A DNA stretch of 57,718 nucleotides, counting the filler, from Dimorphilus gyrociliatus (lineage: Eukaryota; Animalia; Annelida): NCBI GenBank assembly GCA_904063045.1. It is 3 parts of 3 records of this genome, joined end to end, with 100 filler letters (N's around TTAATTAATTAA, not from the genome) between each part and the next. Parts side by side here need not be neighbours in the genome. Positions count along the whole stretch, not along the records: positions 25,763 to 46,328 come from CAJFCJ010000080.1; 2 more parts are not named here. One strand, 5' to 3'. The position numbers were made by a program, and so were the translations under genes. Under the pieces are notes generated by a model. The model was not told where the DNA came from. It saw only the letters and a program-made list of their open reading frames with translations, and ran no database searches. How positions within the stretch are numbered: the stretch's first letter is position 1; every line of letters begins with the position of its first letter. Shown piece after piece: positions 22,020-55,819 of the stretch.

Positions 22020-22680
22020 TCCTATTCCATTTGTTTAAAAAATACTTAAGTGAAGTTTAATAGATAGACAAACTGCTACTTCAATAACAAAAGAACTATA
22101 AATGATAATTTTCTATTGAATGAAGAACTGATTACTTATATATATATATTCATTCATTGAATCAATTACTCAATCACTCATATTCTTTCTTTTCTCTCTT
22201 TAAAACATGTTAATTATCTATTGACGACTGATAATCAACTTTATTGTTATGAAATTGTGCACTTTATTTTGCCTTGACTTGGTTAGGATAGGGTTACTTA
22301 GTGTGGTTACCAAATGGAATTTTCATACGAAATTAAAAATGGCAAAAAAAATTTTTTTAAATCAATTGTCAAGTCAGAAATAATTGGACAGGCATTTAAT
22401 TAATTAATTAACAGCTTGTTGTTCTAAGGGTTTCATTAGTATTGTTATATTGGATCCTTTACCTGGACATTTCATCCCTTTTGTTTGAATATAAAATTGT
22501 TCTACCAACAAACCATTATTCAAGCTGGTGCTTTGTGCTGAAAAGTATAGGTTACACAGAAGTCTCAAAAATTATTATAGGCTTAAAACTCATTCAGACA
22601 AACATGCAGTTTGTAGTTTTGTAGTTTGGTCTTGTCATTATTCATAATTAATAATTAATCTCATAAAATTGTTTTTAGGG

Positions 22681-22860
22681 TGTACTTTGTTGTATTGTAA
22701 TGGTAGTTATTTCTGACATTTCATCACAGTATTTGTTCTTTTCAATCAAAATTCCATCGTTATAATTCTTATAAAATAAAGGCGTTTCCGAAGTTCCTTT
22801 TATATCCAAAGTCTAAATATTGCCATATTACTATTTCTAAGTTTATATATGGTTACATTG
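22681..22860 (-). repeat. Diverged terminal fragment of the Gypsy LTR family
   Basis: Begins tgtactttgttgtattgtaatggtag, matching the LTR terminus at 52045 and 32195 (reverse); similarity persists for roughly 180 bp. Confidence 0.55.
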
Positions 22861-22929: not shown

Positions 22930-25662
22930 TAACATTTTTTGACAATGCCTAAATCTATGGTTGTATAGTTTGTCATCGTCCGAGTTCTCACACAGCTTTC
23001 TAGTGGAATGTCTTCAGAAAAGGAACGGTAGTTTGTTTCCATATAATTTGCAGTCTCATCCCGAACATTAGTGAGGGATTTGCTGATGCCATTCTTGAGC
23101 TTTTGTTATCCTTGTAAGAGATGTGACTAATTTTAAGACTAATATCAAATTCAACATGGACAAGATGAACTTTTTTTTCAATGTCTGCACTGGTTAAGCA
23201 ATACTCTGAACTGTCTACAATTTGCAAGTTCTGAACAATACCAGTACTGTAATAGTCAACAGGCTTGATTTCTCCATTTTGAATGGTGTAGTGGATATTT
23301 TCCTGATAGTTTAGGGCTTCAAGTGCATTGAAAATCCACTTTTTCTTTTGTTTTTCAAAATATTCCATATGATTACTTGCTTCATATTCACTAAATTCTC
23401 TTTTATTACGTTTGCAGTCATATGCCCAGTTTCTAATCTTTTTCTCATCCCAATTAAATTTGTCTGACTGACATTTGAAAATAAGTTTTTCTATGTTCAG
23501 TGAATCAGCAGAGGAAGTAAACTTTTTCAAATCTTTATCATATTGGTTAGATTCTCTCAGCTCATTTAAAAGTTCAGGTAAATCTTTCTCTTTCCCTTCA
23601 ATTTGAAAATTATTCTGAATAAATACTTTATTGAGCTTTTGCATGATTTCAGCATAGAATGTTGTCTTCAGTAAAACCTGATATTTTATTTGTTTAAAAT
23701 TGTGAGGTGGTAGGCTGTACAACTGCAGAGTGTTTAAAAATTGGACCAAGTTTTGTGAGTTGTTGATTGAAGTTTCAAATGATTGAACAAGTTCACAAAG
23801 TTGAATGAAACTCCAATGATTCTTTTTCAACTGGCAAAACACTGTGAAAAAGTCATTTTCTAGTAATTCATTATCACACCTGAAAAGGCATCTTGCTTCA
23901 ATCAGATTCCTAAAATCAGTTAACGGAATACTTTTTACACCCTGCATAACGTCCAAGTCAATTTTCTCTGTTGAACAGAAGTTTATCAGGTTTTCAAATT
24001 CACATAAATTATCAATACTCCTTAAACATTGAAACAGTTGACCAATGAATTTAGCTCGAAAGTTACAACACAAATTTTCAGCCAATTTCTTTAAATATTT
24101 ATAATTAACGTCCTTTTCCAATTGACAGGCTGATAATATCAACATTGTCCATTCCTGTTTAATGGCTTGAAGTGGAGTTGGGGAATAAATCGCAAAGAGA
24201 CGTTTGACTTTGTCAAATGTAAAATCTTGAACCATCCAAATTAGTTCAAATAATTGTGAAAATGGATGAATATTACACCTCTGAATCAAAGATAAAATTT
24301 CATATGATTTTTCCTTTTGGAATTTTTTCTCAATAACAAGCCAATTGCGAAAAAATTGCATTTGGTCTGAGTAAGAGGCTTTTATATTCCTAAATATGTC
24401 CGAGATAAGAAGCTCTTTCATCCACTCGCTCTCTTTCTTTGAAAATATTGCGAAATCTATACTTTTTAGCGAAACAATACACTCCAGCAATTCATAATTA
24501 TGCTCTGATACTTTAATGTCCCATTTGTGATTATGTAATAGATCTTTCACTACTTTAGAGCAGAATTCTTCCAAAAAATGTACATATTGCTGTTCCTGAT
24601 GATCCTTAAGGATCCCGAATGAATATCCTTGGATGATATGACAATCACTGTAAATATTCTGTGAAACAAATCTCATACAAACTTCCGGTAATGATAAAAA
24701 TTTCCTGACGTAATACATTGATTCGAAAAATGAAACAATCAGATTTTTGAATCTTTTTTGGTCCTTGTGAAAGAAATGTTAAACAGCTTCTAGACATTTT
24801 ACATCACATTTTTCCCTTTCTTTAATAATTCGACAATAACATGGTAATGCTATTTCCAAACATTTTCCTTTGAGCAAACATCGTTCTATCAAGAGAATGA
24901 AAGAATCCTTTTTTGGAAAATCTGAATTTTCTTCAACTATCAAAATAATGAAATAATCCAGAGATGGTAAATTGCATAATTTTCTACCATCTTGTATCAT
25001 AGTCAGCAAATCAGATACATTTTCTTTACTCATTTCTTGAAGAAGACTATCATAAATTTTACTCTGATAAAAAATTTGGTTATGTTCATCTCGATTCGCT
25101 ATTTGGCTGTGTAATTTGACTTGCTGCATTAGTCAACTTTCTACGATTGTCAACTTGTGTTTTTAAAAACTGTAGGCAAGACTTTTTCAGCTTGTCTGAC
25201 TTTGTACTCTGATATAAAATAGCTACACTATTCAGCAATTCATCAGGAATTTCTTCTTCCATACAGTCAAACTCATTCAACAAATCTAAAGTCATTTCTT
25301 GACACTGCACACTTTTTTTGTCAATGATGTCTTTTAGTTTATGATAGTTCTGTGTCAAAAAACCACCAGTTTTCTCTGCATATTTACGCAAGTCTGTCAA
25401 AAACGTATCTGGCGTGTCATTATAGCTTAAATTTGCCATTTTAATTTTGATTTTTTTCTGACAAATAGAAGAATTGTCTTGAAGAACAGATTCAAAGAGC
25501 TCTAGAATTTTACATATTATTGCTTTGGTGCTGTCTGGACTAGTGCCAACTTGAACCAGCTTACAAGAAGTTCATTATCCACTTGCTCAACAGCACAGGC
25601 CAACTTGGCAACAGAATCAACACAAAAACTTTGAATATTGTAATTATGCGAAGCGATTTCTT
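22930..25662 (-). pseudogene. Fragmented gene resembling metazoan SecA-like (SecA DEAD/crosslinking domain) proteins; 5' end lies in the gap
   Basis: Overlapping ORFs 25086-25439, 24779-25129 and 23000-24718 with frameshifts. KWIFNALEALNYQENIHYTIQNGEIKPVDYYSTGIVQN resembles the SecA segment YIVxDGEVxIVDxxTG. The ATPase motifs are absent. Confidence 0.55.
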
Positions 25663-25762
25663 NNNNNNNNNNNNNNNNNNNNNNNNNNNNNNNNNNNNNN
25701 NNNNNNTTAATTAATTAANNNNNNNNNNNNNNNNNNNNNNNNNNNNNNNNNNNNNNNNNNNN
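25663..25762. other. Assembly gap: 44 N + TTAATTAATTAA + 44 N
   Basis: Exactly 100 bp with a six-frame stop linker; identical structure at 46329-46428. Confidence 0.97.
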
Positions 25763-28700
25763 TAACTATCAAAGTCAAAAAGAACAAAAGAAAAATCCAT
25801 TACTCGAAATAGAAGAATTACAGTTGGAAAGTATGAATTATGACATTTGTCTAATCAAAATGTACACAATATTAATTCAAATACACTAGAAATTGACAAT
25901 ATTTTACATTGTCCAAAAATAATCTGAACAAGACAGAGAAGAATTAAAAGAAATGATAAAGAATTATGAAATATATTGCTACAAATCAGAATGACATTGG
26001 TTCACCAGATGTTCACCAATGGCAATTGAATTATTGGAAGATATAAAGCCTTTTCAAACAAAGACCATACAGAATTGCACCCAACAAACAGCAGAATGCA
26101 GGATCAATTAAATGGATTATTGGAAAATGGTCTAATTAGAGCAAGCAAAAGCCAAGGCTTCACCCATTGTTTTTGTGAAAAAGAAAGAAGGAACATTAAG
26201 AATGTGTGGATTACAGAAAACTTAACAAGCAATCAAAAAGAATTGTTATCCAATCCCACATCAGAAGATTTATTTGATAAGCTTGGGAGGCCACAAATAT
26301 TTTTCTATATTGGATTAACAAGTGCATTCATCAATTCCAATTAAAGAAGAAATAAGAGAAAACTGCTTTTATTACCACCATTTGGTTTATTGAATTCAAC
26401 CGCATCCATTTGTTTGGCAATGCACCTTCACACTTCAGCTATATCATGGCAAATTTTGTTATTAATGATTGGAAAACTTCTGCATTAATTATATAGGATG
26501 ATATTATAGTTTTTACCAAAACATTGGAAGAACACTTTGTAGCTCTACAGAAACTTATGGAAAGAATCAAGGAAAAAGACTTCAGAATTAAACTGAGCAA
26601 ATGTGCATTCTTACAAGAATCATTCAATTCCTTGGTCATAGAATTACACAGAATGGTATTGAAACTGATCCTGAAAAGATTCAAAAAATAAAAGATGCCA
26701 AATTACCTATTTTGCAAATACTCTGTGATTTTGTGGCATTTTGTGGTTATTATAGAAGATTTGTTAAAGATTTGCAAAAATCACAAAACCTTTGAGAGAA
26801 TTATTAAAAGTACACCAAAAGACAGAAAACTGAAATGGACAAAAAAAGCAGAGGAAGCTTATGAAACACTAAGGAATGCAATGACAGAGCCCCCAATCCT
26901 TCAACTGCCAGACTTTACTAAATCATTCTATTTAACAACAGATGCTTCTAATTATGCAGTTGTGCAGTTCTAGAACAAGAAGGAAGAAGATGGAAGAAAA
27001 TAAGAAAACCAATTTCTTTTGCTTCCAAGCTCCTAATCAATACACAACTAAGATATGCAGCTTATCAAAAAGAGGCTTTTGCAGTATATTGGGCAGTACA
27101 AAAATTCTCCCATTATCTACAGTATAAGAAATTTTTCTCTACACTGATCACCAAATTTGTACAAACATTTGTACAAAACAAACTGAATACAATACTGTTA
27201 AATGGTGATGGCACTTATGGATATGGATTTTGAAATAATATACATACCAGGAAGACTAATAGAGCAGACTGGATATCAAGAATTGGTGAAACTGTATGAA
27301 GTAATTGATTTTCGTAATTTACTTAAGGAAAGATTAAATGAAGAAAAACAAAATGGCAATACAGTTCCCCAATTAGCAGAAAGAAAGATATGCTTAAATG
27401 CTTTTATATTGATACAGAGGACTTAGAAGAATTAGATGATTGTTTAGATGACAATCTAGACAATGATTATGATGAAGACATAACTGAAATCCAAGCCCAG
27501 TTATGAAACTAAAAATCACACCAGTTGAAATAAACTTCTATAGAGAACAAGTATTAGATACTCCACTAATGAAAGTTGTAGACAAATTGAAGGAGAAAAC
27601 TTGATAATGGTCTTTGAATGAATATGGAAACTTTATTGAATCTATGTTTGTAAAAAGACCTTGTATGGTATCTAAATGGCTGTCAACCACTACTTGTAAT
27701 TCCACTATCAACTCTAACCAACTTACTTGGACAAATTCATCAACATCAACTATTTGAGCACTATGGTGTAGACATAACAATTCACACTTTGGAGCAAGCT
27801 TTCTGGCACCCAAAGCTAAAGAAAACAATTAAAGATCACATAAAGAGTTGTGAATTTTGTAGCAATTAAGAGCACCAGGCAACAAACATCTGTTGGTTGA
27901 AACACCTCACCCAACTTTACCAATGCAAAGAATAGCTATGGACATAATGGGACCTCTGACTGGACATGATTCTTACAAGTATATACTTGTCATTATAGAC
28001 CACATGTCCAGATTTACCAACATATTCCCTCTAAAAACTCAAACAGCTGAGGAAATTTCTAAACATTTGTTTTTCAACTATTTCCCAATATTTGGTATCC
28101 CAGAAGAAATTCTCACAGATCAAGGAAGGAATTTTCTTGGGGAAATCTTTACAGAAATGGTGACATCAATGGGAATACGAAAAATTAAAACAACAGCATT
28201 CCATAGCCAAAGTAATGGAATGGTAGAAAGAAAGAATTTGGAAATTCGTAGAGCACTACATAAACATGTAGTTATGGAACAATTAACAGATTGGACAAGA
28301 CAGTTACCATTAATTCAGACATGTTTAAATCAAATTCCAGTTGGAAGCACTGGCAAAACCCCACATGAAATATTATTTGGATTGAAGAATAGAAATGTTT
28401 TAGACCTGTTAATGGAAGTTCCAAGATTAGAACCAACAACAAAATTCTTATTTGATAGAAAACATGAACTTGAAGAAATTAGACAACAGCACTTTGCAAA
28501 TCTGTTCTAAAAAAGAAGGAATATAGAGATAGAGTTAATAAAGCTATTACAAGAAAACCTCCAACTTACAAAATTGGTGATTGGGTACACATAAGAAATG
28601 AAAACATTGGTCAAGGAATGAACAGAATAAATACAAGCAAATGGAGTGGACCATATCTTGTAACTGCTACAGATACTACAAAATGTTTGTATGAATTACA

Positions 28701-28800
28701 AATATTGGCAGATAAAAGAAAATTCTATCATGCTAGTAGACTAAGACTAGCTAACAAACAACCTATAACAGTTAACACAGTGACAGTAAGGAAACACCAA
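25763..28800 (+). pseudogene. pol: Gypsy pol (RT, RNase H, integrase), multiply frameshifted
   Basis: NGLIRASKS, broken Y-x-DD (tatataggatgat), FLGHRIT, LTTDASNYA, HYG...FWHP...CEFC zinc finger, QRIAMDIMGP, LTDQGRNF, SNGMVERKN, KWSGPY. Confidence 0.9.
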
Positions 28801-31245
28801 ACAAATGGTGGAATGCTTCCTATCAGAGGATCAATAATTTATACACTGTTAGCAATATGCTGTTTAAACTTGGTCCAAGCAAATGTATCCATAACAAAAG
28901 CAAACATAACTGTAAGAATGCTACCATCAGTACAGTTTTGTCAAGGACAACAAGTACACCAATCATTTGATTTAGCAGATGAACCAGTATGTACCTTTGA
29001 AACTAAACAAATGATCAAAATTGTAGCTAACATATATGAAATTAAAGCTGACAATTTGGCAATTCAAGCTGTCAAGTGTTTAGTGAAAAGAAGAATCAAT
29101 TTTCTACACTCATTACTTTTTTGGAGCAAAGAAACACAGAATTGAAAAACAAACACTTGCCTTAAGTGAAAACAATGCAGAACAATGCTATACACACACA
29201 AAACCTTAAAATGGACAAAACCTAATTGAAAAAGGCAAACTTCTTATGTATAATGAAAACAAAGGACCAAATTACAAATGGCCAAGAACCACAGTGGTGG
29301 AAGAATTTACAACAATCCTTCAAATTGGCAAGGGCTTATTGGAATCCAAGTCAAGATAAAATAACCACAATTTGGAATATTTAGAAGACTGTTCTATTAA
29401 ACAAAAATTTTGTAGAACTTTGGATTCAATCATTATATTTAATCCAGAAAAAGGCCAAAGTCTTCTAGGCCATGTTTCACCATGGAAAATAGTTTTCCCA
29501 TAATGTGGAATGTGTAAAACTTGGAGGATATTTTTCCTGCCCCAACTATGCAATAATGGATTTACCTTACCAAGACAGATATATCAAAGGATATGGTGGT
29601 CCTGGTACCAGAGTATTGGTACCCCAGAAAGAATATGACTTACTTAGAACTGATCTTACAAATTCTAATTATGCTGACAATAAAATAATAGAGGATACAA
29701 AATACAAGATCATTTCAAATAAAGAAGTTAATAGATTGGAGAAATATATTGGAAAGAAATCATCACTAAGAAAGGCCAATGTCACAGAAATACAAGATAT
29801 TTTAACATATAATGATTGGTATAGAGATGGTGACAAAACCTACCATATGCTGATAAAAAATCATGCAACACCATTAGTGAGGACTTGGTTTGTCAAAGAA
29901 ATTATTTCTCCAGACATCTGGGATATTCACAACAAATACATACTAAAAATGCTGAAAACAACAAAGCTAAAACCTGCCAGACTAGTCAGATCACAAGATT
30001 TTGAATTGGACAAAAAACCAGTTACTTTCAACCCACTCCCAAACATGAACATTTGGTATCAAAGCCCAAAAGATACACAATTTCAAATTCATACAGAAAA
30101 TGGCAAATATACACTTTTACAAAGAAAACCAATAAATCACAAATGGAAGAGGAAACAATTAGAAAACATAGAGATTCCAGAATCCCACCAAATAAATATA
30201 AAAGATGCCTATAAGAACAGCTGCACTACTAAACAATATTGACAAAAATTTTCAAAATTTACAAACAGTTTTTAAACAAGTTTCACAACTTTTATGCAAA
30301 GAATTTATCATGAGAAACAAGATGATAGCCCTACTTACACCACTATCACCTCAACTACCAACAATACTTGGATCTAAACATGGAACCCATAGTACATGGT
30401 TAGGAGATCTAACAACCCTCAATACATGTACAGAATTAAAAACTGTTCAAGTAGTTTGTGACACAACAATTATAACAAAAAATGGATTATGTTCAAAAGA
30501 ATTTCTGATCAAATATAAAGATCTCCTATTCTCAATTGATCCAATACTTCATCATGCTTACCACATCACAAAAGAAGACATAAGATATGGTACATGTGAC
30601 CAAACTCAGCATCTCTTCAAGATCAAGAAAAATCCTTTGGATGCAGAACAAAATCAATATGCCATACATTCTGGCAAGAAGACATTTATCTATTATACAA
30701 GGAAAGGGTGCAGGTTCCAAACAGCAGCAGCACAATCAATCAGAATGAAAATCAACAGTCAAATTGAAGAACCAAAACTAGAAGTTGTCAGACTCACAGA
30801 ATTATTACAACTAGGTATAAAAGAAGATGTGGGCAAGAAACATTATCAGATACAACAAGTTTTGGAATACATACAGGATACTTTGACTAAGCATAGAGAG
30901 CATATTAACTTTGCAAATGATTTAGGAATTGATGCAGCCTTGTCACCAACACAACATCTATTTTCTTCATGGATAAGAAAACCTTTCAAAATACTAATAG
31001 ACACACTTCTGCCAATTATACTCTTGATTGGAATTGGATTCTTCATCTACTTTATTTGGAAGAAAAAACTGAAAAGAGTTCAATTTACCAGACTGTCTAA
31101 ACTACTGACAAAAACAAAAAGATTACCTTCAGCTCCAACAGCTGAATCAGAAGAAATAGAACTGCAAAATTATCCTATGTTCAGAAAAAGTGGTGATAAC
31201 ATAATTGTCACAAGTCCTAGACCTTTCGTGGAAGCAAGGTCTTAA
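28801..31245 (+). CDS. env: Envelope glycoprotein (frameshifted), in frame with the integrase C-terminus; class III fusogen-like cysteine pattern; C-terminal TM
   Basis: Signal-like IIYTLLAICCLNLVQA; FCQG...EPVC...AVKCLVKRRINFYTHYFFG...QCRTM; LLC...LSPQL...WLGD...NTC...LCS; TM ILIDTLLPIILLIGIGFFIYFIW followed by KKKLKR. About 800 codons over several frames. Confidence 0.7.
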
Positions 31246-31255
31246 AGGAGTGGGA
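31244..31255 (+). promoter_or_regulatory. Polypurine tract
   Basis: aaaggagtggga overlapping the env stop and 4 nt before the LTR start. Confidence 0.75.
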
Positions 31256-31259
31256 TGTT

Positions 31260-32195
31260 TGTACACATACATTCGTCAGCTATATTCTACAATAGAGAAG
31301 TAGTATTGAACCAGTATTGTACTATGCAGATAGCACTGATAAAGATAAGCAGTAGTGACCTAGTTTCGCATAGGGCAGTGCATACACATTATGCCAGTAA
31401 TAAAACCTATTGAATTATATAAAGAATATTTGCTATTTGCAACCTAGCATTAATATTACAATTTATTAATCCATAAATTTATGATTTCGAACTAAAACTA
31501 GTTCAATTAATTATCAATTATGCTTAAATTCTAAGGTTAGATTTATATTCACTATTCAACAGTATTGTATACACAATACTGTTCTTTTAACATGCATTAA
31601 TCAGATATACTTCCTCCTTATATGCTGATGCTAAATTTACTAACTCAATCAATTGAATATCATTATTAAGGTAGAATATAAAAACGGTCAAATATACAAT
31701 CTACATGTTTTCTTGATTGTTGGACTTGTCCTACTAAAATTGTTACATCTTATGCAACTCTCCAACCTTCGAAATTCAACTATTATTTAGAAGAGGAAAA
31801 CAATAAAAACATGACCATATTTAGAACTTTTCTTTGTCTTCAAATGTTACTTTTGTTTTTGTGAACATTGAAATTTGTGAACTATCAACCCTTAAAAGAG
31901 TATATAAACCCTACGAAATTAACAGTTGATAGTTCAGTTTTCTAACCGTCAGCTAGTTGTTTAAACTAGCTTGTTTAGAACTAGAAGCTCATTTTACTCA
32001 ATACATATTCTTTGGACGAAATACTGGTGTTTTGTTAATCAATTTCTACCGAAATTGCCTTTGTTAGACTATTTGTGGACGAACTTTAAAGGTTCTATTT
32101 GGACCAGTACTTTGGCAAGTTGGTAAATGATTGGAAAGGACGATTACAGTTGTGACGAACCAGAAATTCCTACAATTACAATACAACAAAGTACA
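31260..32195 (+). repeat. 3' LTR (~936 bp, TGTAC...GTACA)
   Basis: Follows the PPT; 5-bp inverted termini; exactly this interval recurs inverted at 52045-52965. Contains an 11-bp-stem hairpin at 31558-31583 and AATAAA near 31398. Confidence 0.75.
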
Positions 32196-32786
32196 AATAC
32201 CAACAACAATAATAATAATAATAATAGAGAACAGCTGAAAGAAAGAAAAGGTCACCAAATCAGGGTTTATAATATCACCAACAGTCAACATTTAACATAT
32301 GTCATTGTACCAGGGGATGGAAATTGCCTGTTTAGCTCTCTACTTTACTTTCAGACAAGGTTTACATGTCCAAATGTTTTAAGAAAATTTATTGTGGGAC
32401 ATTTGCTATGTGGAAATCTGGGGAATAAAAGTTTATTTGGAAATGTAACATTGAAAAAAAGGATCAAATGGGAGTATCAGAATATGGATAATTATAAAAA
32501 AACCATGTATTACAGTTTAGGTTGGGGGGGTTCTATTGAGATAGAAGCATTTTCGCAATTATTTAACAAGAAAATTGTTGTATATGGTAAACGGTTTCAT
32601 AAATACATAATTGTGGAAATGACAAATATGCATGATGCCAACATTAACCAGATCCACTGCTTAATGTACAAAGATTACCATTATAATCCCATTGTAAATC
32701 AAGTTACAATAGGTAAGTTCAATAAAATAGTTGGTTTTAATCTGTACTATCTTTATTTAATTTCTACAGATTCTGTTCAGGGTTAG
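32196..32786 (+). CDS. OTU-family cysteine protease domain fragment, 5' end replaced by the LTR
   Basis: VPGDGNCLFSSL, WGGSIEIEAFSQLF and YHYN motifs; probable intron (gtaagt...ctacag) near 32713. Confidence 0.8.
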   Translation, partial: NTNNNNNNNNREQLKERKGHQIRVYNITNSQHLTYVIVPGDGNCLFSSLLYFQTRFTCPNVLRKFIVGHLLCGNLGNKSLFGNVTLKKRIKWEYQNMDNYKKTMYYSLGWGGSIEIEAFSQLFNKKIVVYGKRFHKYIIVEMTNMHDANINQIHCLMYKDYHYNPIVNQVTIGKFNKIVGFNLYYLYLISTDSVQG

Positions 32787-33507: not shown

Positions 33508-33919
33508 AAAATTTAGATCTGGAGAATATCCATTTTATATTCTTCAAAAAATTAGGGGTAATATTGAAAACAGAGTCATTGCTTTTAATATTTTTTTTCT
33601 AATTGTATGTTTTTAATTTTAGTTCTAGTCATTTTTCTTCTTTTCTATTTTCTTTTTAATAAATATTCTTTTAAAAAAAATTTACATTTCTTTTCAATTC
33701 ACTTTACAACTTTCATTTACAATACTTCAATATATTCTCATTCCATTATTTATTTTACTTCAAATTTTATTCAACTTGCCATACATATTTCACTTTGAAC
33801 ACAAATATTTCCCTTTTAATTGTATCAATTTCTACCAATAGAATTAAGTTACTTTTGAACAGTATATTAAATGTCAGCCTATATGTAACACAAAGAACCA
33901 GTTTTGTTAATATTTGATG

Positions 33920-34210
33920 TACAGTTATCAAATTTGGCATACAGAATGATTGTGATATGTCGATCACAAATCTTTTTACAGAATTCAATTATCTTTTACG
34001 GTTCCAGAGTTATGGTGCCGTCAAATTTTGTCAACTTTTTTCTTATATAAGCCTATATATAATATTCGATGGGTGAAAACTAACTTTGTTAATATTTAGA
34101 GTAGAGCTTGGAAATTTGGTATATAGACTGATATTGGTATATCGATATCAAATCTTTTTTAAAAAATTAATAATTTTGTACAGTTCAAAAGTTATAGGAA
34201 CGTAAACATT
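33920..34210 (+). repeat. 182-bp repeat array, left copy set
   Basis: cgat(c)acaaatct motif at ~33960 and ~34142; the same unit occurs at 36007, 36189 and 36337. Confidence 0.75.
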
Positions 34211-34322
34211 TTGGTGGATATTCAATGCACAATATTATATAGGAGTATAATATAACATTTGTTCTGTTTAAAAACTTTGTTTATCCAAGTTGAGACTTTT
34301 ATCTTATTGCAAAGGTGTAGGA

Positions 34323-35516
34323 ATGACATTCCAGAGATACCCCCACCCAACAAAAATATACCCAACCTTTACAGAATATGCTTATAATAGCTTATTGATT
34401 CAAATAAAGCATATTCTTTTAATAGTGTTTAATGCATCTAACAATAATTTTGGAAAATCTTTTGAGACTGTTTTTAAAAAACACATTTTAAATTATCCCT
34501 TACTTGGGAATTTAAAAATTACGGACCATAAAAAGCTGTATGATAGAATAAAAGGTCATTTTGAAACATTTCAAGAAAATGTAGATGCTGAAATACAAAT
34601 GTACTATCAAGAACAAATTGATTTGAATCAATTTTTTTATCTGAAACCACTCCTGAAAACTGCTGAAAATTGGGGACAAATCCAAACAAGTATGAGATAT
34701 ACAATATATCAAGTGTTGAAAAGTAAACCAAATACCATGGAGGGGTCAGAACTTTTTCAATCAATAATTGATGAAATCAAAGACATATATTTTCGTCAAT
34801 CCCAAGAAGAAGAGAGTGAAGAAAAAGAAGATCCATTAAATACAACTGTAGAAATTGAGAATCAGCAGCCAACTCAAACAACAAATTCTCAATCCTCAAC
34901 TGCAGCATCATCTGTCTCAACTTTAAATGAAAATGAACATGTTAATATTGTTAAGAAAGCAAATGAAAGGTATTTTAACTTTGATAATAATAATCATGTA
35001 AATTTTAGAACTTACAATTTTGTACAAGAAGTTGCAAATATTTTTTCCAAAAAAGAACAAAGAAAAATTGTAAAAACATTCTGTCCAACAATGGATTTTA
35101 ATACTGAAGTTGTAATTATATCTAAATATTTTAATGACATTAAAGTACAGGATTTTAAGAAAATTTTTGAAAAACATAATATGAAGAGTGTTCAATTTTT
35201 ACTTTTTAAAAAATTATGTTTCAACAGTTTTCCATATTTACTGTCTGAGTGGCCTTTGCAGGATAAAAAAATTTTTATACTTTTGAAAGAATTTCCAAAA
35301 AAACTTAAATTTGAAATGGTAGAATTGGTAAAACTAAAGCCAAAAATATCAAATGATATATTCTTTTTAAAAGAATTCTTTCCTTCCCATATGGAAAATT
35401 ACATTGGTTGGAATGGTTTCAAATTAATTGACTTTAATCCAAAAAAATATAACAAAGAGCAGACAATGCTTTTGAAATTTATAAAATATGTGTTTTTGGA
35501 AAAGAAATTGGTCTAG
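34323..35516 (+). CDS. Intronless orphan ORF (~397 aa from first ATG), function unknown
   Basis: Uninterrupted ORF 34290-35516; two globular-looking halves separated by an acidic and S/T/Q-rich linker; no motif recognised. Confidence 0.6.
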   Translation: MTFQRYPHPTKIYPTFTEYAYNSLLIQIKHILLIVFNASNNNFGKSFETVFKKHILNYPLLGNLKITDHKKLYDRIKGHFETFQENVDAEIQMYYQEQIDLNQFFYLKPLLKTAENWGQIQTSMRYTIYQVLKSKPNTMEGSELFQSIIDEIKDIYFRQSQEEESEEKEDPLNTTVEIENQQPTQTTNSQSSTAASSVSTLNENEHVNIVKKANERYFNFDNNNHVNFRTYNFVQEVANIFSKKEQRKIVKTFCPTMDFNTEVVIISKYFNDIKVQDFKKIFEKHNMKSVQFLLFKKLCFNSFPYLLSEWPLQDKKIFILLKEFPKKLKFEMVELVKLKPKISNDIFFLKEFFPSHMENYIGWNGFKLIDFNPKKYNKEQTMLLKFIKYVFLEKKLV

Positions 35517-35949
35517 AAATAACAACTTTTATTCCTTTTATATTTGTAAATATGCTTTTAACTTTTTAACTGAAATTTTCTCTTTTTGTACATGTATTTC
35601 TATATATTTGTATATTTTCAACTATGTGCTTTTTTTCTATCTTTCTTATAATGCATTTTAATTTGCAATTTTTAAACAATTTTTTTTGTTTCTTATCATT
35701 TACTCTTTTATAAACTTTGTAAACATTTATTATTTCAATTATATTTCTCTATTTCTACTTTCATGTTTTTAATTTTAGTTTTAGTCATTTTTCTTTTCTA
35801 TTTTATCTTTAAAATAACTGACTCATTCTGTCATTCATTTTGCTTCAAATTTGATGGAAATCGGCCCAGTAGTTGCTGAGATATGATTTTCTTTGAACGT
35901 TATATGTGCATATGTAAAACCAAAATATTCGACATACAAAAATACTAAC

Positions 35950-36410
35950 TTTCTTATTATTTAAGCCACAGTTTTGAAATTTTGCACATAGACTAATTTC
36001 GGTATGCCGATCTCAAATCTTCAAACAGAATTCAATTATCTTTTATGGTTCTTGAGTTATGGCGCCGTCAACTTTTGTTGCTATATAGCATATATAAGCC
36101 TATATGCAATATTCGTTAGGGCTAAACTAACTCTGTAAATATTGAGAATAGAGCTCTGAAATTAACTGTATTTAGTAATTTGGGTACGCCGATCTCAAAT
36201 CTTTTTACAGAATTCAATTATTTTTTTGCTATATAGCACATATAAGCTTATATGGAATATTCGTTAGGGTTAAACTAACCCTGTTAATATTTAGAATAGA
36301 GCTCTGAAGTTGTTTTCATATAGTAATTTGGATACACCGATTCCAAATCCATTTACAGAATTCAATTATCTTTCATGGTTCCAGAGTTATGGCACTATCA
36401 ACATTCATTG
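35950..36410 (+). repeat. 182-bp tandem repeat array (about 2.5 units, one with a deletion)
   Basis: ccgatctcaaatc...cagaattcaattat...gagttatgg...aatattcgttaggg...gaatagagctctgaa repeated. Confidence 0.85.
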
Positions 36411-36921
36411 CTATTGTATCATTCTGATGGATTTGCAGACTTCCCACAGAACTTTTATCAATGTTTATCCTCATCTCTTTTGACAAGTTTGTAGAAAGTA
36501 CTCACAGTCAGGTTAATAATGACCAATAAAAAGGAAAGTTTTCAACAGAGTTTGGTTTACTGGTTTCATTTTCTCACATAGTTGTTGGCACCACATAATC
36601 TTATCTATAGATAATCAGGTTGTGACATGTTCTCACAGATTTTTCCACATATCTCATACACATATATTGTAAATATTTGTTCACATGGTTCATTTGCAGT
36701 TTGCAGATCAAGGAGTCAACATCACATTTAGTTAAATGTGCAACTGCTACAACTGCTTTTGAAAATCAACATCCTTCAATAATAAAATGAATAAAATGGT
36801 ATGTACATTAAACTGTTAAACAGTATTACTATAAGTAGCAGTTTTAATATGATATATATTAATTAAAACCTGAAGAAGACAATTCCCTATTGGAATTCTG
36901 CAACCTCTCTGTAGGTGTAGG

Positions 36922-37622: not shown

Positions 37623-40172
37623 CTACATTATATCTATATTTACAATTGTTGATTTTGAAAATTCCATTCTATCCATAAATTTATCAAAAAGCTCTCCAAT
37701 ATGAGAAAAGCTATAACCGTCAGCAAGAGCACTTTCTTCAATGTCCCTAAATTGATGTTTTGTAAGCGATAGTGAAACGTTTTGGGCTGAAAAACATTGT
37801 GAAAGAAATTCTTGCAACCCTTCCACATCAGAAAAATTATGAACGTCACAATTTCCCAAATTAATTAACAAGAGTTGGCTTGCAAATTTATTTAATTTTG
37901 AACATACATTTGCAAGTTCTGAATCGAATCCCTCATGGCCTGATATATCTATTTTTTGCAAGCTTTCGCATTCGTCGAATAAATCTAATAAAGGCTCAAA
38001 TTCCAAATAGGAAATGGCACAACGAGAAAAATCAATTGACAATAGCGAATGGGAAGAGCTTTTTAATCCATTACATATTATCTTGAATGCGTCATCTAAA
38101 CCTCCATCATAGGATAGTTTGATTTCTTGAAGAGATTTACACTCACTTAGTAAACTACCCACATATTTATAATCCTCTTGCTCCAGACTACAATCACATA
38201 GATGGATAGATCGAAGACTTTTAGATGATAATTTTAAAGCCATGCATACTCTGTGAAAGTCTCTTCCAAAAGAACTGTCTGTCAGACTGATACTTCGCAA
38301 AGTATGACATTCTCGAAAAAAATCACATAAGATCTCAATATGTTTGTCACCTGCTGCATTACATAAACAAACTGATGAAATATATTTCGTTGATGATTTT
38401 AAGAAATTACAAATTGTTTTCAAATTTTCAACAGAATGGTTCAAATTCAAATTTCCAATTATATTATAAAAGAGTTGGTCATTGATGAGAAGTTGACGAT
38501 TTAACGATTTGAACCTAACAGCCAGAAGAGTAATATCTATATTTTTTGGCACGTAGACTATTTTTATTGCCTTACATTCAAAAATCAAATTATTTAAACA
38601 GCTATTCTCACTGTCCACAGCTAGGATAGGAGCATTTGAAAAATCAATTTCAACAAGAGATCTGGCTGACAATGTTAGTCCATTGCAAATATTTTCAAAA
38701 TCGTTTTGTAACAGATCAGCTTCTCTTCCTTCATGTTTATATTTTTGTAACGATGTACATTTCATGAGTAATTCACTTAGATGGAAAGCATTGTTTCCAT
38801 CTATATCGCACGAACGCAAACTGAGCGATAAAAGAGTTTCAGACGATGATTCTAATCCGTTGCAGATTTTCTCAAACTCTTTATCAACTGACTGACCTAT
38901 ATCGGATAGTTGAATTTCTTGTAATTTTGTACATTCTGATAAAAAACTGCCTAGATGGCGATAAAGGCTTTTATCCAAATTTTTCAATGACACATCAATT
39001 GATAGAAGATTCCTTGATGGTGATTTTAATGCATTACACATTCTCTCAAAACCTTCTTGGTTCCAATGATTACCACTTAGCTTGATTTTACGAAGTAAAC
39101 TACAGTGTGAAAGTAAACTAGACAAAGGATTATCATTTTCTTCGTCCTTGAAACAAGATGATATATCAATTGATAAAAGACTTGATGAAGACGATTCTAG
39201 TGCATTAAAAACTCCAATAAAATCACTTCCAAAATGTTCGTTATTAGATAAATTGATGTTTTTCAGGCAATTACATTTTACTAGTAAATCCGTCAACAAA
39301 TCAAGGTGATGTTTCTCCTTCAAAGTGTTGCAAAGATTAAGATTTTTAAGAGAATGCGATGATTTTTTCAGTGAATTACACATTCTATTAAATTCTCTTC
39401 TGTTTATATCAATATTCTCCATACTATATTCTTGTAGACAAGTACATTCATTGAGTAAATCACTTAACAAAACAAATTGATATTCAGTGAAATGACAATT
39501 TGAGAGGTCAACACTTTGAAGTGTCTTAGCAGACGAATTTAGTCCATCAAATATGTGTAACCAACTATCAGCAATATCTTTATTACAACTGAAATCGATT
39601 GCTTGTAATGATTTACACCTTGTTAACAAATTGCCTAGTGTTAGACCTTCAACATCTGTTAAAAGGCAATTGGATAATGTTAATTTATGTAGAGATTCCG
39701 TGCACAATTCAAGTAATTTAAAACTACTACTAATCAGTTTAAGGCTTTTACTATCTTGTATATTGAGAGATCTTAGATTGCATATATCTACCTCAAAACA
39801 GCTACAATCAATAGAATCGCATCTTTTCAGTTCAAGATCTTGAAGAGAGTTACCAATCAGTAAATTACAAATTTTACAAAATCCTTCCAGTGCTAGAGAC
39901 TCCAATGAATGATTATTAATAAATGTTGGAAAATTTTCATTTATTATCTGATGTCTCCTCAATAAAATATGTGTTAATGATAAGACATCAGGAGAGAAAA
40001 ATTCCAAATCATCATCATCCAATTGTTTATATTCTTTATTAATGAAGTCAAAAATTTTATTTCCAACTTGTTGAGGTAGATATAATGATTGATTTTTGCA
40101 TATTCTACTTATTAATTTCAAATTGTTACAGATGTAATTCAGCAAAATATTCTCCAAACAATTGGTTGCCAT
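37623..40172 (-). CDS. Intronless RNI-like leucine-rich repeat protein (849 aa)
   Basis: Regular ~57-aa double repeats (LxxLLxxCxxLxxIxLSxN...ICNGLxSSxxxLxSIDxSxC); N-terminus resembles the ZYG-11/ZER1 leader. Confidence 0.9.
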   Translation of the reverse strand: MATNCLENILLNYICNNLKLISRICKNQSLYLPQQVGNKIFDFINKEYKQLDDDDLEFFSPDVLSLTHILLRRHQIINENFPTFINNHSLESLALEGFCKICNLLIGNSLQDLELKRCDSIDCSCFEVDICNLRSLNIQDSKSLKLISSSFKLLELCTESLHKLTLSNCLLTDVEGLTLGNLLTRCKSLQAIDFSCNKDIADSWLHIFDGLNSSAKTLQSVDLSNCHFTEYQFVLLSDLLNECTCLQEYSMENIDINRREFNRMCNSLKKSSHSLKNLNLCNTLKEKHHLDLLTDLLVKCNCLKNINLSNNEHFGSDFIGVFNALESSSSSLLSIDISSCFKDEENDNPLSSLLSHCSLLRKIKLSGNHWNQEGFERMCNALKSPSRNLLSIDVSLKNLDKSLYRHLGSFLSECTKLQEIQLSDIGQSVDKEFEKICNGLESSSETLLSLSLRSCDIDGNNAFHLSELLMKCTSLQKYKHEGREADLLQNDFENICNGLTLSARSLVEIDFSNAPILAVDSENSCLNNLIFECKAIKIVYVPKNIDITLLAVRFKSLNRQLLINDQLFYNIIGNLNLNHSVENLKTICNFLKSSTKYISSVCLCNAAGDKHIEILCDFFRECHTLRSISLTDSSFGRDFHRVCMALKLSSKSLRSIHLCDCSLEQEDYKYVGSLLSECKSLQEIKLSYDGGLDDAFKIICNGLKSSSHSLLSIDFSRCAISYLEFEPLLDLFDECESLQKIDISGHEGFDSELANVCSKLNKFASQLLLINLGNCDVHNFSDVEGLQEFLSQCFSAQNVSLSLTKHQFRDIEESALADGYSFSHIGELFDKFMDRMEFSKSTIVNIDIM

Positions 40173-40599
40173 GCTTTTTATTCGTGGACTTCGTATTTTC
40201 GCATTTGGAATAGATTTTGATAATTAGCATGGATTTGATTGAATGCTGAAGATTTCTTCCTGTTTGAATTTATTTTTTAGTAATAAAAGCTTTCTGTGTA
40301 GTTTGTAAGAGTAGTTTACCTTCTATCCCTCTCTCTCTCTCTCTCTTTCTCCTTCCCATCTTCCCTCTCTGCAATGGACTATTTTTATAGAGTTTTTCCT
40401 CTCAGCTTTAGGACTTTCAATCAAATTTTTGGGTAGGAAATAAACAAAGTTGCTTGTTTTATCAACTGTTAACCAGAAATTAATAAGAAATTAAGCATTT
40501 TTTAAAATTGCACTTATTTGACAATAAAGCCATTTTTATAAAAATCTGAGTAATATTCAATTGTGGACAGTGATCAATATTTCTAGACAGGCGATTGAT

Positions 40600-46328: not shown

Positions 46329-46428
46329 NNNNNNNNNNNNNNNNNNNNNNNNNNNNNNNNNNNNNNNNNNNNTTAATTAATTAANNNNNNNNNNNNNNNN
46401 NNNNNNNNNNNNNNNNNNNNNNNNNNNN
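46329..46428. other. Assembly gap: 44 N + TTAATTAATTAA + 44 N
   Basis: Same linker as at 25663. Confidence 0.97.
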
Positions 46429-50929: not shown

Positions 50930-51326
50930 TGTACTTTTCTGCTGGGGTTGTAAGTAAGTACTGATCCAAATAGAACCAAATTATGAGTAAGCCACTTAGA
51001 AGAGGGATGTAGAATTGATGAAGGATGAATATAGAACCAAAACGTAAGAATAATATAACTGTATTCTAAAGTAATACTAGACCTGTTCACTAAGGCAGTT
51101 GATTCAGGACTACCTACGCCCTTCTTTTACACAATTCCTTATCAGTTGTTTATGCCTTGGCTGTCAACAACAAGGGTCTAACCCCAGATAAGGATTGTTC
51201 ACAACAAACAGGGTCAAGGGTTATCATATTATGCAATAGTGATGTAAACAACAACAACTTTGTGTAGGTTACCCCTCAAGGGTCAATTGTTACATCATAT
51301 TCATGTAAATAAACACTTCTATAACA
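50930..51326 (-). repeat. Solo LTR-like repeat A
   Basis: Copy of 56573-57064; shares ggttctatttggatcagtact and the ...aaagtaca end with the long LTR. Confidence 0.6.
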
Positions 51327-51558
51327 AATTCAATCAAAACTTACAAGAAAGCTCTTCTTTTTATTACACTATGGATGAGTTGAAGAGAGAAAGTGACTTA
51401 ATTGGAGTTTATCAAAAGTTACTTTCAAATTTGTGATTGTACAACTTTGATTATATTTTACATGCTTGAACTCTATTATTTTATGCAACTTATACATGTA
51501 CATCTTAAAACCTACGCAAGAAAATGCTATAACATTGGCCTTCCTAAATGTTGAACCT

Positions 51559-51923
51559 TGTAACATCCTGTTACTAAACATAAATATGAACTACACATTT
51601 CGGCAACTGTAAAGTGATGATTGGATGTCAGAGGCAAACCTCAAAGTATATAAATCCTCACTATTCTCATTCTGCATGCAGCTTCCATCTGGACCCAAGG
51701 ACCTGGGAAGATAACCTGGAAACAACCTCCACTGGAACCATCCATCTACTCCTCAACATTGGAAGACAGTTTGGTAATTTGGCAACCTGCTATTACGAAC
51801 TATCTACTCTGCTATTGAACTCTCATATTGTTACTTGCTTAAGTATTATTATTGCAAAAAAACCGTTTTAATTTAAACATTTGTTTAAAGGTTCCAGTAG
51901 AACCAGTATTGTTATAACTTGCA
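51559..51923 (+). repeat. LTR-like repeat B
   Basis: Starts tgtaaca; TATA-like gtatataaa; diverged direct repeat of 54654-54999. Confidence 0.6.
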
Positions 51924-52044
51924 AAATGATATTTGTCAATGGATGGATTATGATGGTATACACAGTGACAAGAATTTGTAGGTATTAAGATAGAGAGAAG
52001 CAAATTTAGTTGTCTTCTATGAAAATCTTTTGTCTGAAAAGAAG

Positions 52045-52965
52045 TGTACTTTGTTGTATTGTAATTGTAGGAATTTCTGGTTCGTCACAACTGTAATCAT
52101 CCTTTCCAATCATTTACCAACTTGCCAAAGTACTGGTCCAAATAGAACCTTTAAAGTTCGTCCACAAATAGTCTAACAAAGGCAATTTCGGTAGAAATTG
52201 ATTAACAAAACACCAGTATTTCGTCCAAAGAATATGTATTGAGTAAAATGAGCTTCTAGTTCTAAACAAGCTAGTTTAAACAACTAAACTGAACTATCAA
52301 CTGTTAATTTTGTAGGGTTTATATACTCTTTTAAGGGTTGATAGTTCACAAATTTCAATGTTCACAAAAACAAAAGTAACATTTGAAGACAAAGAAAAGT
52401 TGTAAATATGGTCATGTTTTTATTGTTTTCCTCTTCTAAATAATAGTTGAATTTCGAAGGTTGGAGAGTTGCATAAGATGTAACAATTTTAGTAGGACAA
52501 GTCCAACAATGAAGAAAACATGTAGATTGTATATTTGACCGTTTTTATATTCTACCTTAATAATGATATTCAATTGATTGAGTTAGTAAATTTAGCATCA
52601 GCATATAAGGAGGAAGTATATCTGATTAATGCATGTTAAAAAGAACAGTATTGTGTATACAATACTGTTGAATAGTGAATATAATCTAAACTTAGAATTG
52701 AAGCATAATTGATAATTAATTGAACTAGTTTTAGTTCGAAATCATAAATGTATGGATTAATAAATTGTAATATTAATGCTAGGTTGCAAATAGCAAATAT
52801 TCTTTATATAATTCAATAGGTTTTATTACTGCATAATGTGTATGCACTGCCCTATGCGAAACTAGGTCACTACTGCTTATCTTTATCAGTGCTATCTGCA
52901 TAGTACAATACTGGTTCAATACTACTTCTCTATTGTAGAATATAGCTGACAAATGTATGTGTACA
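52045..52965 (-). mobile_element. Solo LTR of the env-bearing Gypsy element
   Basis: Near-identical reverse complement of 31260-32195 (one ~15-bp indel, scattered substitutions); flanks gaag / aaag may be a 4-bp TSD with one mismatch. Confidence 0.85.
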
Positions 52966-54193
52966 AAAGATATTAATGAAAATGGGTTTTGCATTATAAT
53001 TTTTGCAACAAATAAGCAAATTGAACTTCTTTCCTCAACTAAAACATGGTTTCTTGATAGAACCTTTAAACATGCCCATAATCCTTTTATACAAATATTC
53101 TCTATACATGGATTTTTGAAAAAAAATGACAAATTAAAACAAGTACCACTATTAAATGTGTTTATGTCTTCAAAAAAGAAAAAAGCATATAAACTGTTGT
53201 TTCAAGTAAGATGAAAGTTTTTCTAAATATATTCCAAAGGTGATTTTGAACTTTTTCAGACTGTTTGTGAATTAACAAATAATTATAAGCCAAAGAGATT
53301 TGTTATTGATTTTGAAAAGGCAATTTGGAAAGCAATTCTTTCTGTTTGGGAAAATGCAGAACTAGGTGGATGTCTATTTCATTGGTGTCAGGCTGTATTT
53401 AGAAAAATAAAGGTAGTAATTTTTTATGATATTTTAAGAATTTTTAATATTTAAAAAACACATTAGGAGCTTGGCTATAGTAGAGACTACAAAAATAAAA
53501 CAGGAGAATGGTATGCAATGAAGATGATATTAGCTCTTCCTTTTCTTCCCAGTAATATTATAAAACATCACTTTAAAAAGATTAAAACGAACTTAGCTGA
53601 GACTGGCAAATTAAATAATTTTGTGAAATACATGGAGGAAACATGGATAGATAATGATTTGTGGTCACCAAATAATTGGTCAGTGTTTAAAAGAGCTATT
53701 TGAACAAATAATGACTTTGAAGGTTTCCACAACAAATTCAACAGAAATTTGCAAGAAAATGCCTCATTTTATTGCATTGTGGATGAACTAAAAAGAGAAA
53801 GTGATCTAATTAATGTATATCAAAAGCTAATATCAGAAAAAAAGATTTGTAGGATGCAAAAAAAAATCTATGCCAACATTCAGAAGAAACTATATGAATA
53901 TTGGGATGAGTTTGAAAATGGTGATATTTGTGCAAGTGAGCTGTTGGAAAAATGTTCAGCAATTTATCATCCATGAATCTGTTTGTCATTTTTTATATTT
54001 ACTCTAAATGATTCTATTTGCTGAATACAATTGTAAAACCAGATTTATTCCTTCAGTTGTATTATTTCAATATAAAGTATTACAATTTCAAATGTATTTA
54101 AACAGCTTTGGTAAGTTTAATGTAATAGTTCAAAACAATGGGCGTTTTCAACAGGATAGTGGGCGTTTTCAACAATGGGCGTTTTCAACAACA
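52966..54193 (+). mobile_element. MULE (Mutator-like) transposase, 5'-truncated pseudogene with two introns and a terminal repeat
   Basis: IIIFAT...WFLDRTF (DGTF variant), IDFEKAI, GCLFHWCQAV, LALPFLP, YMEETWI, *TNNDFEGFHNK (premature TGA at 53701); ends in 3x gggcgttttcaaca at 54140-54193. Confidence 0.9.
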
Positions 54194-54653
54194 TCCTATC
54201 ATCAGAGTTATTTTTATTTAGAGAATTAAAAGGAGGGAGAACAAATATTCTTGATAAAGACAGACAAGGATGCTCAAGAACAGCCACTAACAATGAAAAT
54301 AAGCTCAAACTTTGTACAGTGGTTCGTTTGTCTCAGATCATACTTTGTACAAAATTTCAAGGAAATTGGAGAAGTTTGAAAATTATTCTTTTCTTGCTCA
54401 TTTATTTTATCAAGTGAAAAGAACATTGTACAACTTTCGTTCTATTCTATTCTTATTCTATACTACTATTATATATAACTTACTACAAACCAATGCAAGG
54501 AAATACAATAACATGTGGCCTAACACAGACCTTCTTGATCATACTTAAGGTTCATCCTAAGTACCACTTAAGTTTTGGCCACATTATGATTGATGAGCTT
54601 GTCTAAGGTTTTGGCCAAACTATGATTAATTAACTTTCTCAAGTGGGGAACTT

Positions 54654-55704: not shown

Positions 55705-55819
55705 TGTTACCAAAAGGGGATGACTTTTCCCAAAAAAGAGGACAACTTTTCCCAAAAAAGGGGATGACTTTTCCCAGGGACGAGTTTTCCCAGGGACAAG
55801 TTTTCTGGCTCCCATTCTG
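55705..55819. repeat. MULE/MITE-type terminal repeat block (gga[c/t]ga[c/g]ttttccca)n
   Basis: Five degenerate ~16-22-bp units ending ttttctggctccc. Confidence 0.6.

What the first reader, a model, noticed from the sequence alone, without database searches (positions are those of the whole stretch)
28560..31245. Gypsy element with Pol-Env read as one frame and a class III-type fusogen
Seen: the integrase C-terminal module (KWSGPY...YHASRLR) continues without a stop into a signal-peptide-like stretch and a Cys-patterned ectodomain ending in a TM and a basic tail. The patterns C...FFG...(E/Q)C..M and LC......L.P......GD....C resemble class III fusion proteins (herpes gB, chuvirus/rhabdovirus G). 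Known: insect errantiviruses use a separate, spliced, baculovirus F-like env, and gB/chuvirus-like envs are described from nematode and insect BEL/Pao elements. Inference: an independent env capture by a Gypsy lineage, expressed as a polyprotein released by signal peptidase; a candidate endogenous infectious retrovirus-like agent in a non-insect invertebrate.
Basis: partly seen in the sequence, partly recalled or inferred. Interest (0 to 1): 0.8.

Follow-up and report, generated by a model that had tools for sequence, protein, structure and literature searches.

The report
Annelid Gypsy element with herpes-like envelope
This is a retrovirus-like jumping gene, likely of a small marine annelid worm, whose integrase gene runs without a stop into an envelope gene predicted to fold like herpesvirus glycoprotein B; the feature is real, but this kind of element is already published.

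Summary
The integrase C-terminal module and the env signal peptide share one open frame (28483-29145), and near-identical short-read contigs show no indel across that junction. The rest of pol and env is broken into many frames in the window; the breaks look like long-read errors. Env is class III: a natural homolog folds confidently in domains I-II and matches herpes gB, rhabdovirus G and GP64, and that domain's profile maps in order onto four window pieces. The novelty claim fails. The integrase core is 98% identical to a Dimorphilus gyrociliatus protein. That worm's Dingle Gypsy family with a gB-like env was published in 2020 (PMC7854359), and gB-type env Gypsy elements are widespread and probably ancient (PMC13524379). 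That paper's supplement labels two gB-type elements POL-ENV or GAG-POL-ENV. Polyprotein processing is inferred; Env also has its own Met, so a separate mRNA is possible. Infectivity is untested. A roughly 140-170-residue insert of unknown fold is the only unexplained part. The scan noted similar flatworm elements before. Interest 0.2.

The parts
25763..27260 (+). Reverse transcriptase and RNase H of a Ty3/Gypsy pol, in many frame pieces; 5' LTR, PBS, gag and protease are missing at the assembly gap 25663-25762
   Evidence: Pfam RVT_1 E 4e-7, RT_RNaseH E 7e-14, RT_RNaseH_2 E 6e-12; pieces 43-100% identical to P0005; gaps listed
27654..27866 (+). Integrase zinc-binding (H2C2) domain
   Evidence: PF17921 E 2e-12; 91% over 69 aa to P0005
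27863..28510 (+). Integrase catalytic core
   Evidence: PF00665 E 2e-10; 98% over 100 aa to P0005, D. gyrociliatus DgyrCDS14407
28483..28746 (+). Integrase C-terminal module (GPY motif; 'GPY/F' label recalled); no room for a chromodomain after it
   Evidence: weak MLVIN_C match E 0.032, below cut-off; sequence
28747..28812 (+). Open 22-codon linker between integrase and env
   Evidence: bridged by contigs of 3 runs with no indel listed here
28813..28881 (+). Env Met and signal-peptide-like stretch (cleavage site judged by eye; no signal-peptide predictor run)
   Evidence: hydropathy peak 2.2; weak alignment to the N-terminus of P0006, E 0.001
28882..29633 (+). Env domains II and I (class III fusion module), in several frame pieces
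   Evidence: profile of the folded P0006 domain hits four consecutive pieces in order at 29096-29633, the top 4 of 2974 six-frame pieces; folds
29634..30200 (+). Long insert between domain II and the central helix, shared with P0001; fold unknown
   Evidence: spacer about 208 residues here and 193 in P0001, against 35, 73 and 64 in P0004, P0006, P0009; 34% to P0001; no Pfam or PDB hit
30202..31245 (+). Env central helix region, domains IV-V, TM and cytoplasmic tail; stop at 31243-31245
   Evidence: weak collinear phmmer match to VZV gB, E 0.73; homolog P0001 hits Glycoprotein_B at E 0.022 in the matching segment; 8 homologs found
31244..31255 (+). Polypurine tract overlapping the env stop codon
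   Evidence: sequence
31260..32195 (+). 3' LTR, 936 bp, TGTAC...GTACA
   Evidence: 97.3% to a second copy at 52045-52967; contigs of other loci begin matching at 31260
52045..52967 (-). Probable solo LTR of the same family
   Evidence: 8 mismatches and 17 gap bases in 939 columns; no PPT before it and no PBS-like TGG after it; flanking 4-mers match at 3 of 4

Best explanation
This is the 3' two-thirds of an env-bearing Ty3/Gypsy LTR retrotransposon, likely of the published Dingle group of dinophilid annelids, whose integrase frame runs without a stop into an env predicted to be a class III (gB/G/GP64-type) fusion protein. Shown: the domain order RT-RH-IN-env-PPT-LTR, the open junction, and the class III fold of a homolog. 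Inferred: a ribosome reading pol on the genomic RNA would continue into env. The internal signal would send the ectodomain into the ER, signal peptidase would free Env as a type I membrane trimer, and the element's protease would trim integrase from the leftover signal stub within the 22-codon linker. Env would then let particles fuse with neighbouring cells, probably soma to germline as in Drosophila gypsy. The frame breaks in the window are likely long-read errors rather than decay.
For: Pol domains and order. Integrase core 98% to a D. gyrociliatus protein; env tail 42-45% to two others. Dingle is described as Ty3/gypsy with a gB-like protein downstream of integrase (PMC7854359 passages). 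Junction open in the window and bridged by near-identical contigs of 3 runs; 8 of 11 indel rows are shared by 4 of 4 runs and all lie at frame breaks. The indel-rich, substitution-poor pattern (one contig: 25 gaps, 3 substitutions in about 700 bp) fits read error. P0006 model has pLDDT about 80-90 over residues 65-270. Foldseek PDB: 101 hits at E<=0.001, the listed ones all class III fusogens, best HCMV gB 1.3e-7. BFVD best 1.8e-11. VIA-align top 10 are all class III (HSV gB Z 8.4, rmsd 4.7, 137 aligned). P0006 hits Pfam Rhabdo_glycop_FD above its cut-off. Single-ORF Gag-Pol-Env is documented for the BEL/Pao Atlas element (PMC9094657 passages).
Against: The window's own env could not be folded whole; its C-terminal piece gave pLDDT 46 and no Foldseek hit. 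Direct sequence matches to gB are not significant (E 0.73, none). No intact Pol-Env protein was found among longer database proteins (weak tests). One diverged contig in one run has a 2-base indel inside the integrase C-terminal module. The four runs are two studies and may include the source of the assembly. Env has its own Met right before the signal. The D. gyrociliatus element tabulated in PMC13524379 has 631-636 bp LTRs, a chromodomain and a GAG-POL label, unlike this one, so it is not that exact family. No RT tree was built. No RNA or protein evidence.
Confidence: 0.7

Rival explanations
1. Same element, but most functional Env comes from a separate spliced or internally started mRNA using the Met at 28813, as in Drosophila gypsy (recalled). 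The in-frame junction is incidental, and Pol-Env read-through is a tolerated by-product.
For: The Met sits directly before a normal-length signal peptide, with G at -3. Three AG sites with 9-10 of 15 upstream pyrimidines lie in 28600-28812. An open, in-phase linker has about 8% chance probability. Pol is normally made at low levels (general knowledge), which would limit Env.
Against: The acceptor candidates are weak in such A+T-rich DNA. With no stop after integrase, pol translation must enter env anyway. None of the joints listed has splice-site ends into env, but no run is on record as RNA.
Confidence: 0.2
2. The copy is a decayed, dead insertion whose frameshifts are real, and the open junction says little about the living family.
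For: Many frame breaks in the window. The 5' part is absent. Internally deleted derivatives exist in contigs.
Against: Near-identical contigs of 4 of 4 runs differ from the window by indels at the breaks and by few substitutions. Real decay would give many substitutions and in-frame stops. The two LTR copies differ by only 8 mismatches.
Confidence: 0.07
3. A recent, independent capture of a chuvirus- or rhabdovirus-like glycoprotein by an env-less Gypsy lineage.
For: Best BFVD fold hits of the homolog are glycoproteins of negative-strand RNA viruses. Pfam Rhabdo_glycop_FD hits P0006 and, weakly, P0009. ESM Atlas neighbours include Monjiviricetes_fusion clusters (low recognition, lead only).
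Against: No viral protein appears among the named sequence hits (5 of 8 are unnamed). Identities in the fold hits are 8-17%. PMC13524379 argues gB-type env in Gypsy elements is ancient and widespread (sections read).
Confidence: 0.08

Closest known systems
Dingle (Dinophilidae Gypsy-like elements) of Dimorphilus gyrociliatus, PMC7854359
   Same: Ty3/Gypsy LTR element; env downstream of integrase resembling CMV and HSV-1 gB; integrase core 98% identical to an annotated D. gyrociliatus protein.
   Different: Dingle sequences and Extended Data Fig. 3d (the six-frame map) were not available, so identity with Dingle-1 and whether its pol and env share a frame could not be checked.
HSV/gB-type errantiviruses (env-bearing Ty3/Gypsy), Chary and Hayashi, PMC13524379; entry Annelida_Polychaeta_Dgyr_errantivirus_1
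   Same: POL-ENV order; gB-type ectodomain between signal peptide and TM; furin site not always present; entries labelled POL-ENV (Llat_errantivirus_2) and GAG-POL-ENV (Bcal_errantivirus_1) are ENV_HSV.
   Different: The Dgyr entry has 631-636 bp LTRs, a chromodomain and a GAG-POL label; this element has a 936 bp LTR, no chromodomain and env in the pol frame. The main text does not discuss polyprotein expression (0 hits for 'polyprotein' and 'splic'; 0 for 'fused'). That the labels mean fused ORFs is my reading.
BEL/Pao elements with env in the polyprotein: Atlas of Ancylostoma ceylanicum (PMC9094657) and Anakin of mosquitoes (10.1101/2020.02.15.950899)
   Same: Env downstream of integrase; Atlas has one 2828-residue Gag-Pol-Env frame; Anakin carries a chuvirus-like glycoprotein.
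   Different: BEL/Pao rather than Ty3/Gypsy pol; the Atlas env is class II.
Class III viral fusion proteins (herpes gB, rhabdovirus G, thogotovirus GP, baculovirus GP64)
   Same: Fusion domain plus adjoining domain fold, long central helix, C-terminal TM (through homolog P0006).
   Different: Only 5-17% identity; an extra insert of about 140-170 residues before the central helix; no R-X-K/R-R site in the three long env ORFs scanned.

Membership tests
Ty3/Gypsy (Metaviridae) | pol order RT - RNase H - integrase with Gypsy-type domains | tested here: met
   RVT_1, RT_RNaseH, Integrase_H2C2 and rve in that order
Ty3/Gypsy (Metaviridae) | LTR with TG...CA ends preceded by a polypurine tract | tested here: met
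   PPT 31244-31255; LTR 31260-32195 with a 97% second copy
Ty3/Gypsy (Metaviridae) | 5' LTR, PBS, gag and protease | not testable with these tools
   lost at the assembly gap 25663-25762; no genome held
Ty3/Gypsy (Metaviridae) | RT phylogeny inside Ty3/Gypsy | not tested
   no reference RT set was fetched; no tree built
HSV/gB-type errantivirus | env with signal peptide, ectodomain and TM next to a Gypsy pol | tested here: met
   hydropathy and layout
HSV/gB-type errantivirus | class III fold of domains I-II | tested here: met
   shown on homolog P0006 and mapped in order onto window pieces
HSV/gB-type errantivirus | domains III-V and trimer | tested here: inconclusive
   low-confidence model; weak collinear sequence hints to gB
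HSV/gB-type errantivirus | uninterrupted ORFs in multiple intact copies | tested here: inconclusive
   the window copy is frameshifted; contigs point to read errors, but no single contig spans the element
Dingle | dinophilid host | tested here: inconclusive
   all 3 named hits of 8 are D. gyrociliatus, integrase core 98%; 3 of 3 flanking ORFs not found by exact look-up
Dingle | gB-like protein downstream of integrase | tested here: met
Dingle | placement in the Dingle pol clade | not testable with these tools
   Dingle sequences and figure not held
Dgyr_errantivirus_1 (exact family) | 631-636 bp LTR and chromodomain | tested here: not met
   LTR is 936 bp; only 22 codons separate the integrase module from the env Met
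BEL/Pao (Belpaoviridae) | Pao-type pol domains | tested here: not met
   no Pao-type Pfam family hit on the pol pieces scanned or on P0005; only Gypsy-type ones. Which families mark Pao is recalled.

The most novel reading that the evidence does not exclude
An annelid Gypsy lineage makes Env only as the tail of a Pol-Env polyprotein, which ties integrase to the ER membrane during assembly, and carries a new roughly 150-residue domain inserted before the central helix that serves as a built-in receptor-binding module, so that a single-protein gB-type entry machine produces infectious particles in a spiralian.
Probability: 0.15. Interest if true: 0.55.

Novelty: already known. Interest (0 to 1): 0.2.

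Why it matters
As a discovery it matters little: Gypsy elements with gB-type env, one in this annelid lineage among them, are in print. What stays open is mechanistic. PMC13524379 states that cell entry by gB-type errantiviruses is unknown, and its main text does not address how env is expressed. A recently active family with an in-frame Pol-Env junction and an unexplained insert, in a small-genome laboratory-cultured worm if the host inference holds, would be a convenient place to ask whether Env comes from a polyprotein and whether the element moves between cells.

Tried and rejected
Own-genome search: no genome held. Word-index homolog searches: nothing among longer proteins for the env C-terminal piece (2582 candidates) or for the integrase region of P0005 (66 candidates); the env profile returned only its own seed. 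All three are weak tests. Viral contigs: 4 pattern matches, none real. Metagenome contigs: 2 loci, both chance matches (an unrelated short ORF and a myosin-like gene). PDB sequence searches: nothing significant. AlphaFold of the window's C-terminal env piece: pLDDT 46, and its Foldseek run had 0 hits at E<=0.001; treated as uninformative. ESM Atlas: low recognition for both queries, no usable hit for P0006. Pfam on 6 window env pieces: no fusogen family. Exact look-up of 3 flanking ORFs: none found. No RNA holder listed, so expression is untested. Paper searches for a direct account of Pol-Env fusion in Gypsy elements found none: 'Gag-Pol-Env polyprotein'+'gypsy' gave 0 papers; searches added no such account in their listings. 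The library lacks most subscription papers, and figures are not held. Rejected: BEL/Pao identity; a chromodomain; identity with Dgyr_errantivirus_1.
Full report
What is in the sequence. From the assembly gap at 25663-25762 to 32195 the + strand carries the 3' part of an LTR retroelement. Pfam finds RT, RNase H, the integrase zinc finger and the integrase core in Ty3/Gypsy order, in separate frame pieces. A stop-free frame at 28483-29145 holds the integrase C-terminal module (KWSGPY...YHASRLR), a 22-codon linker, a Met at 28813, a hydrophobic signal-like stretch and the start of an ectodomain. The other two frames over 28483-29094 hold 21 and 20 stops. The last ORF, 30202-31245, holds the LC...GD...C pattern, a TM, a basic patch and a 62-residue tail. 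Its stop overlaps a polypurine tract, followed by a 936-bp LTR (31260-32195). The LTR is defined by a 97.3% copy at 52045-52967 on the other strand and by contigs from other loci that start matching at 31260. The 5' LTR, PBS, gag and protease are not in the window.

Is it one frame? In the window only the junction is. Seven public runs were listed, none on record as RNA. Four were laid on 28250-30450. Of 11 indel rows, 8 are present in 4 of 4 runs and each lies at a frame break. Two are placements beside those in minor, diverged contigs. One is a 2-base indel inside the integrase C-terminal module in a diverged contig of one run. None of the eight lies between 28500 and 29090. Three near-identical contigs, from three runs, bridge the junction, one with no substitution over 528 bases; no single near-identical bridging contig is listed for the fourth run (44 pieces were not shown). 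Near the gap one contig differs by 25 gaps and 3 substitutions in about 700 bases, a pattern typical of long-read error. So the family most likely has pol and env in one frame. The limits: the four runs are two studies and may include the source material, contigs merge copies, and an open in-phase linker of this size arises by chance about 8% of the time.

Is env class III? A full HMMER scan with the last ORF gave 8 relatives. P0006 hits Pfam Rhabdo_glycop_FD above the cut-off (E 2e-5), and P0001 hits Glycoprotein_B weakly (E 0.022) in the segment matching the window's central helix. The window piece itself gives only a non-significant, collinear match to VZV gB (E 0.73), and its own model was poor and uninformative (pLDDT 46). 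P0006, folded with a 10-row alignment, is confident over residues 65-270. Foldseek gave 101 PDB hits at E<=0.001; those listed are herpes gB, thogotovirus GP, rhabdovirus G and GP64, best 1.3e-7. BFVD gave 202 hits, best 1.8e-11. VIA-align over 48,161 chains ranked ten class III proteins first (HSV gB Z 8.4, rmsd 4.7, 137 aligned); these Z values are middling, but the ranking is clean. A profile of that domain, built from P0006, P0004 and P0009 only, scored four consecutive window pieces at 29096-29633 in order (E 2e-5, 0.001, 0.003, 0.05), the top 4 of 2974 six-frame pieces; the next scored E 0.57. The class III call is therefore well supported for domains I-II through a homolog, and only weakly tested for the rest. 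Fold does not separate gB from rhabdovirus or chuvirus G as nearest kin. The spacer before the central helix is about 208 residues here and 193 in P0001, against 35-73 in three others; this insert has no Pfam or PDB match. No canonical furin site was found in the three long ORFs scanned.

Host and family. Three of the eight relatives carry names, all Dimorphilus gyrociliatus. The integrase core is 98% identical over 100 residues and the zinc finger 91% over 69 to DgyrCDS14407; the env tail is 42-45% identical to two other proteins. The host is thus likely this annelid or a close relative; three flanking ORFs were not found by exact look-up. The D. gyrociliatus genome paper (PMC7854359; passages, and passages of two supplementary files including the review file; preprint passages) names its most abundant TE class Dingle: a Ty3/gypsy family whose protein downstream of integrase matched CMV and HSV-1 gB by HHpred (P>99). 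Its six-frame map is a figure I could not see. Chary and Hayashi (PMC13524379; abstract, sections 6 and 14, first parts of sections 4 and 9, passages, and parts and searches of the supplements) report 1512 env-bearing Gypsy elements across animals, with F-type and gB-type env both widespread, and argue for an ancient origin. Their table lists one D. gyrociliatus ENV_HSV element with 7 copies. Its 631-636 bp LTRs, chromodomain and GAG-POL label differ from this element, so the two are not the same family. Their supplement labels a bee element POL-ENV and a rotifer element GAG-POL-ENV, both ENV_HSV; I read these labels as fused ORFs, which the main text does not state. Single-frame Gag-Pol-Env is documented for the BEL/Pao Atlas element (PMC9094657, passages), and a chuvirus-like glycoprotein for Anakin (bioRxiv 10.1101/2020.02.15.950899, passages). 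Two earlier scan notes on flatworm elements point to the same eLife paper, which I had already found; look-ups by place and by sequence returned nothing.

How it likely works. Shown: layout, open junction, class III fold of a homolog. Inferred: with no stop after integrase, translation of pol from genomic RNA would continue into env. The internal signal would insert at the ER, signal peptidase would release a type I trimeric glycoprotein, and the element's protease would need to free integrase from the signal stub, plausibly in the linker. Env on budding particles would allow cell-to-cell spread, by analogy with Drosophila gypsy. The main rival is a separate env mRNA starting at the Met that directly precedes the signal; the two routes can coexist, and no RNA data were available to separate them. 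The LTR pair differs by 8 mismatches in 939 columns. They are not the two LTRs of one insertion, so this shows recent family activity, not this copy's age.

Verdict. A real, correctly spotted gB-type env on a Gypsy element, with a junction that is probably truly in frame. It is most likely a member of the published Dingle group and clearly of the gB-type errantivirus kind. The claim of an independent, undescribed capture is not supported. Without a mended env, the fold of the window's own full ectodomain and its activity remain open. Novelty: already known. Interest 0.2; 0.55 if obligate polyprotein expression and a receptor-binding insert were shown (probability about 0.15).

Noticed in passing
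window 52045-52967 (-) and 22680-22748: A near-identical probable solo LTR of this family (97.3%) and a short older piece of the LTR 3' end; the family has inserted at least three times within 58 kb.
   Followed up: partly
window 29634-30200: Env insert of about 140-170 extra residues shared with P0001 (34%) and absent from three more distant homologs; no Pfam or PDB match.
   Followed up: partly
window 28647-30543 and 31325/26729: Contigs show internally deleted derivatives: one run skips 1895 bases covering most of env (ends not splice-like), and three runs join the LTR start to RT. The gene model P0005 likewise passes from the integrase end to an env tail.
   Followed up: no
window 31087-31570: Summed contig depth over the LTR's first 300 bases is hundreds of times that of the internal region in two runs; a weak hint of a short, high-copy derivative (summed depth is not copy number).
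   Followed up: no
window 32127-32786 (+): A 219-codon frame with an OTU-like cysteine protease match (PF02338, E 3e-5) begins inside the LTR end and runs into the flank.
   Followed up: no
window 37623-40223 (-), 23000-25571 (-), 34272-35516 (+): Long stop-free frames: an 866-codon leucine-rich-repeat-like ORF (LRR_4 E 0.026) and others with no convincing Pfam match.
   Followed up: no
window 33892-36414 and 50930-57601: Diverged duplicated blocks: about 148-bp units, and segments repeated at 3.1 and 5.6 kb spacing.
   Followed up: no
window 25663-25762 and 46329-46428: Two assembly gaps with the same short spacer between N runs; indel density in pol rises towards the first gap.
   Followed up: partly
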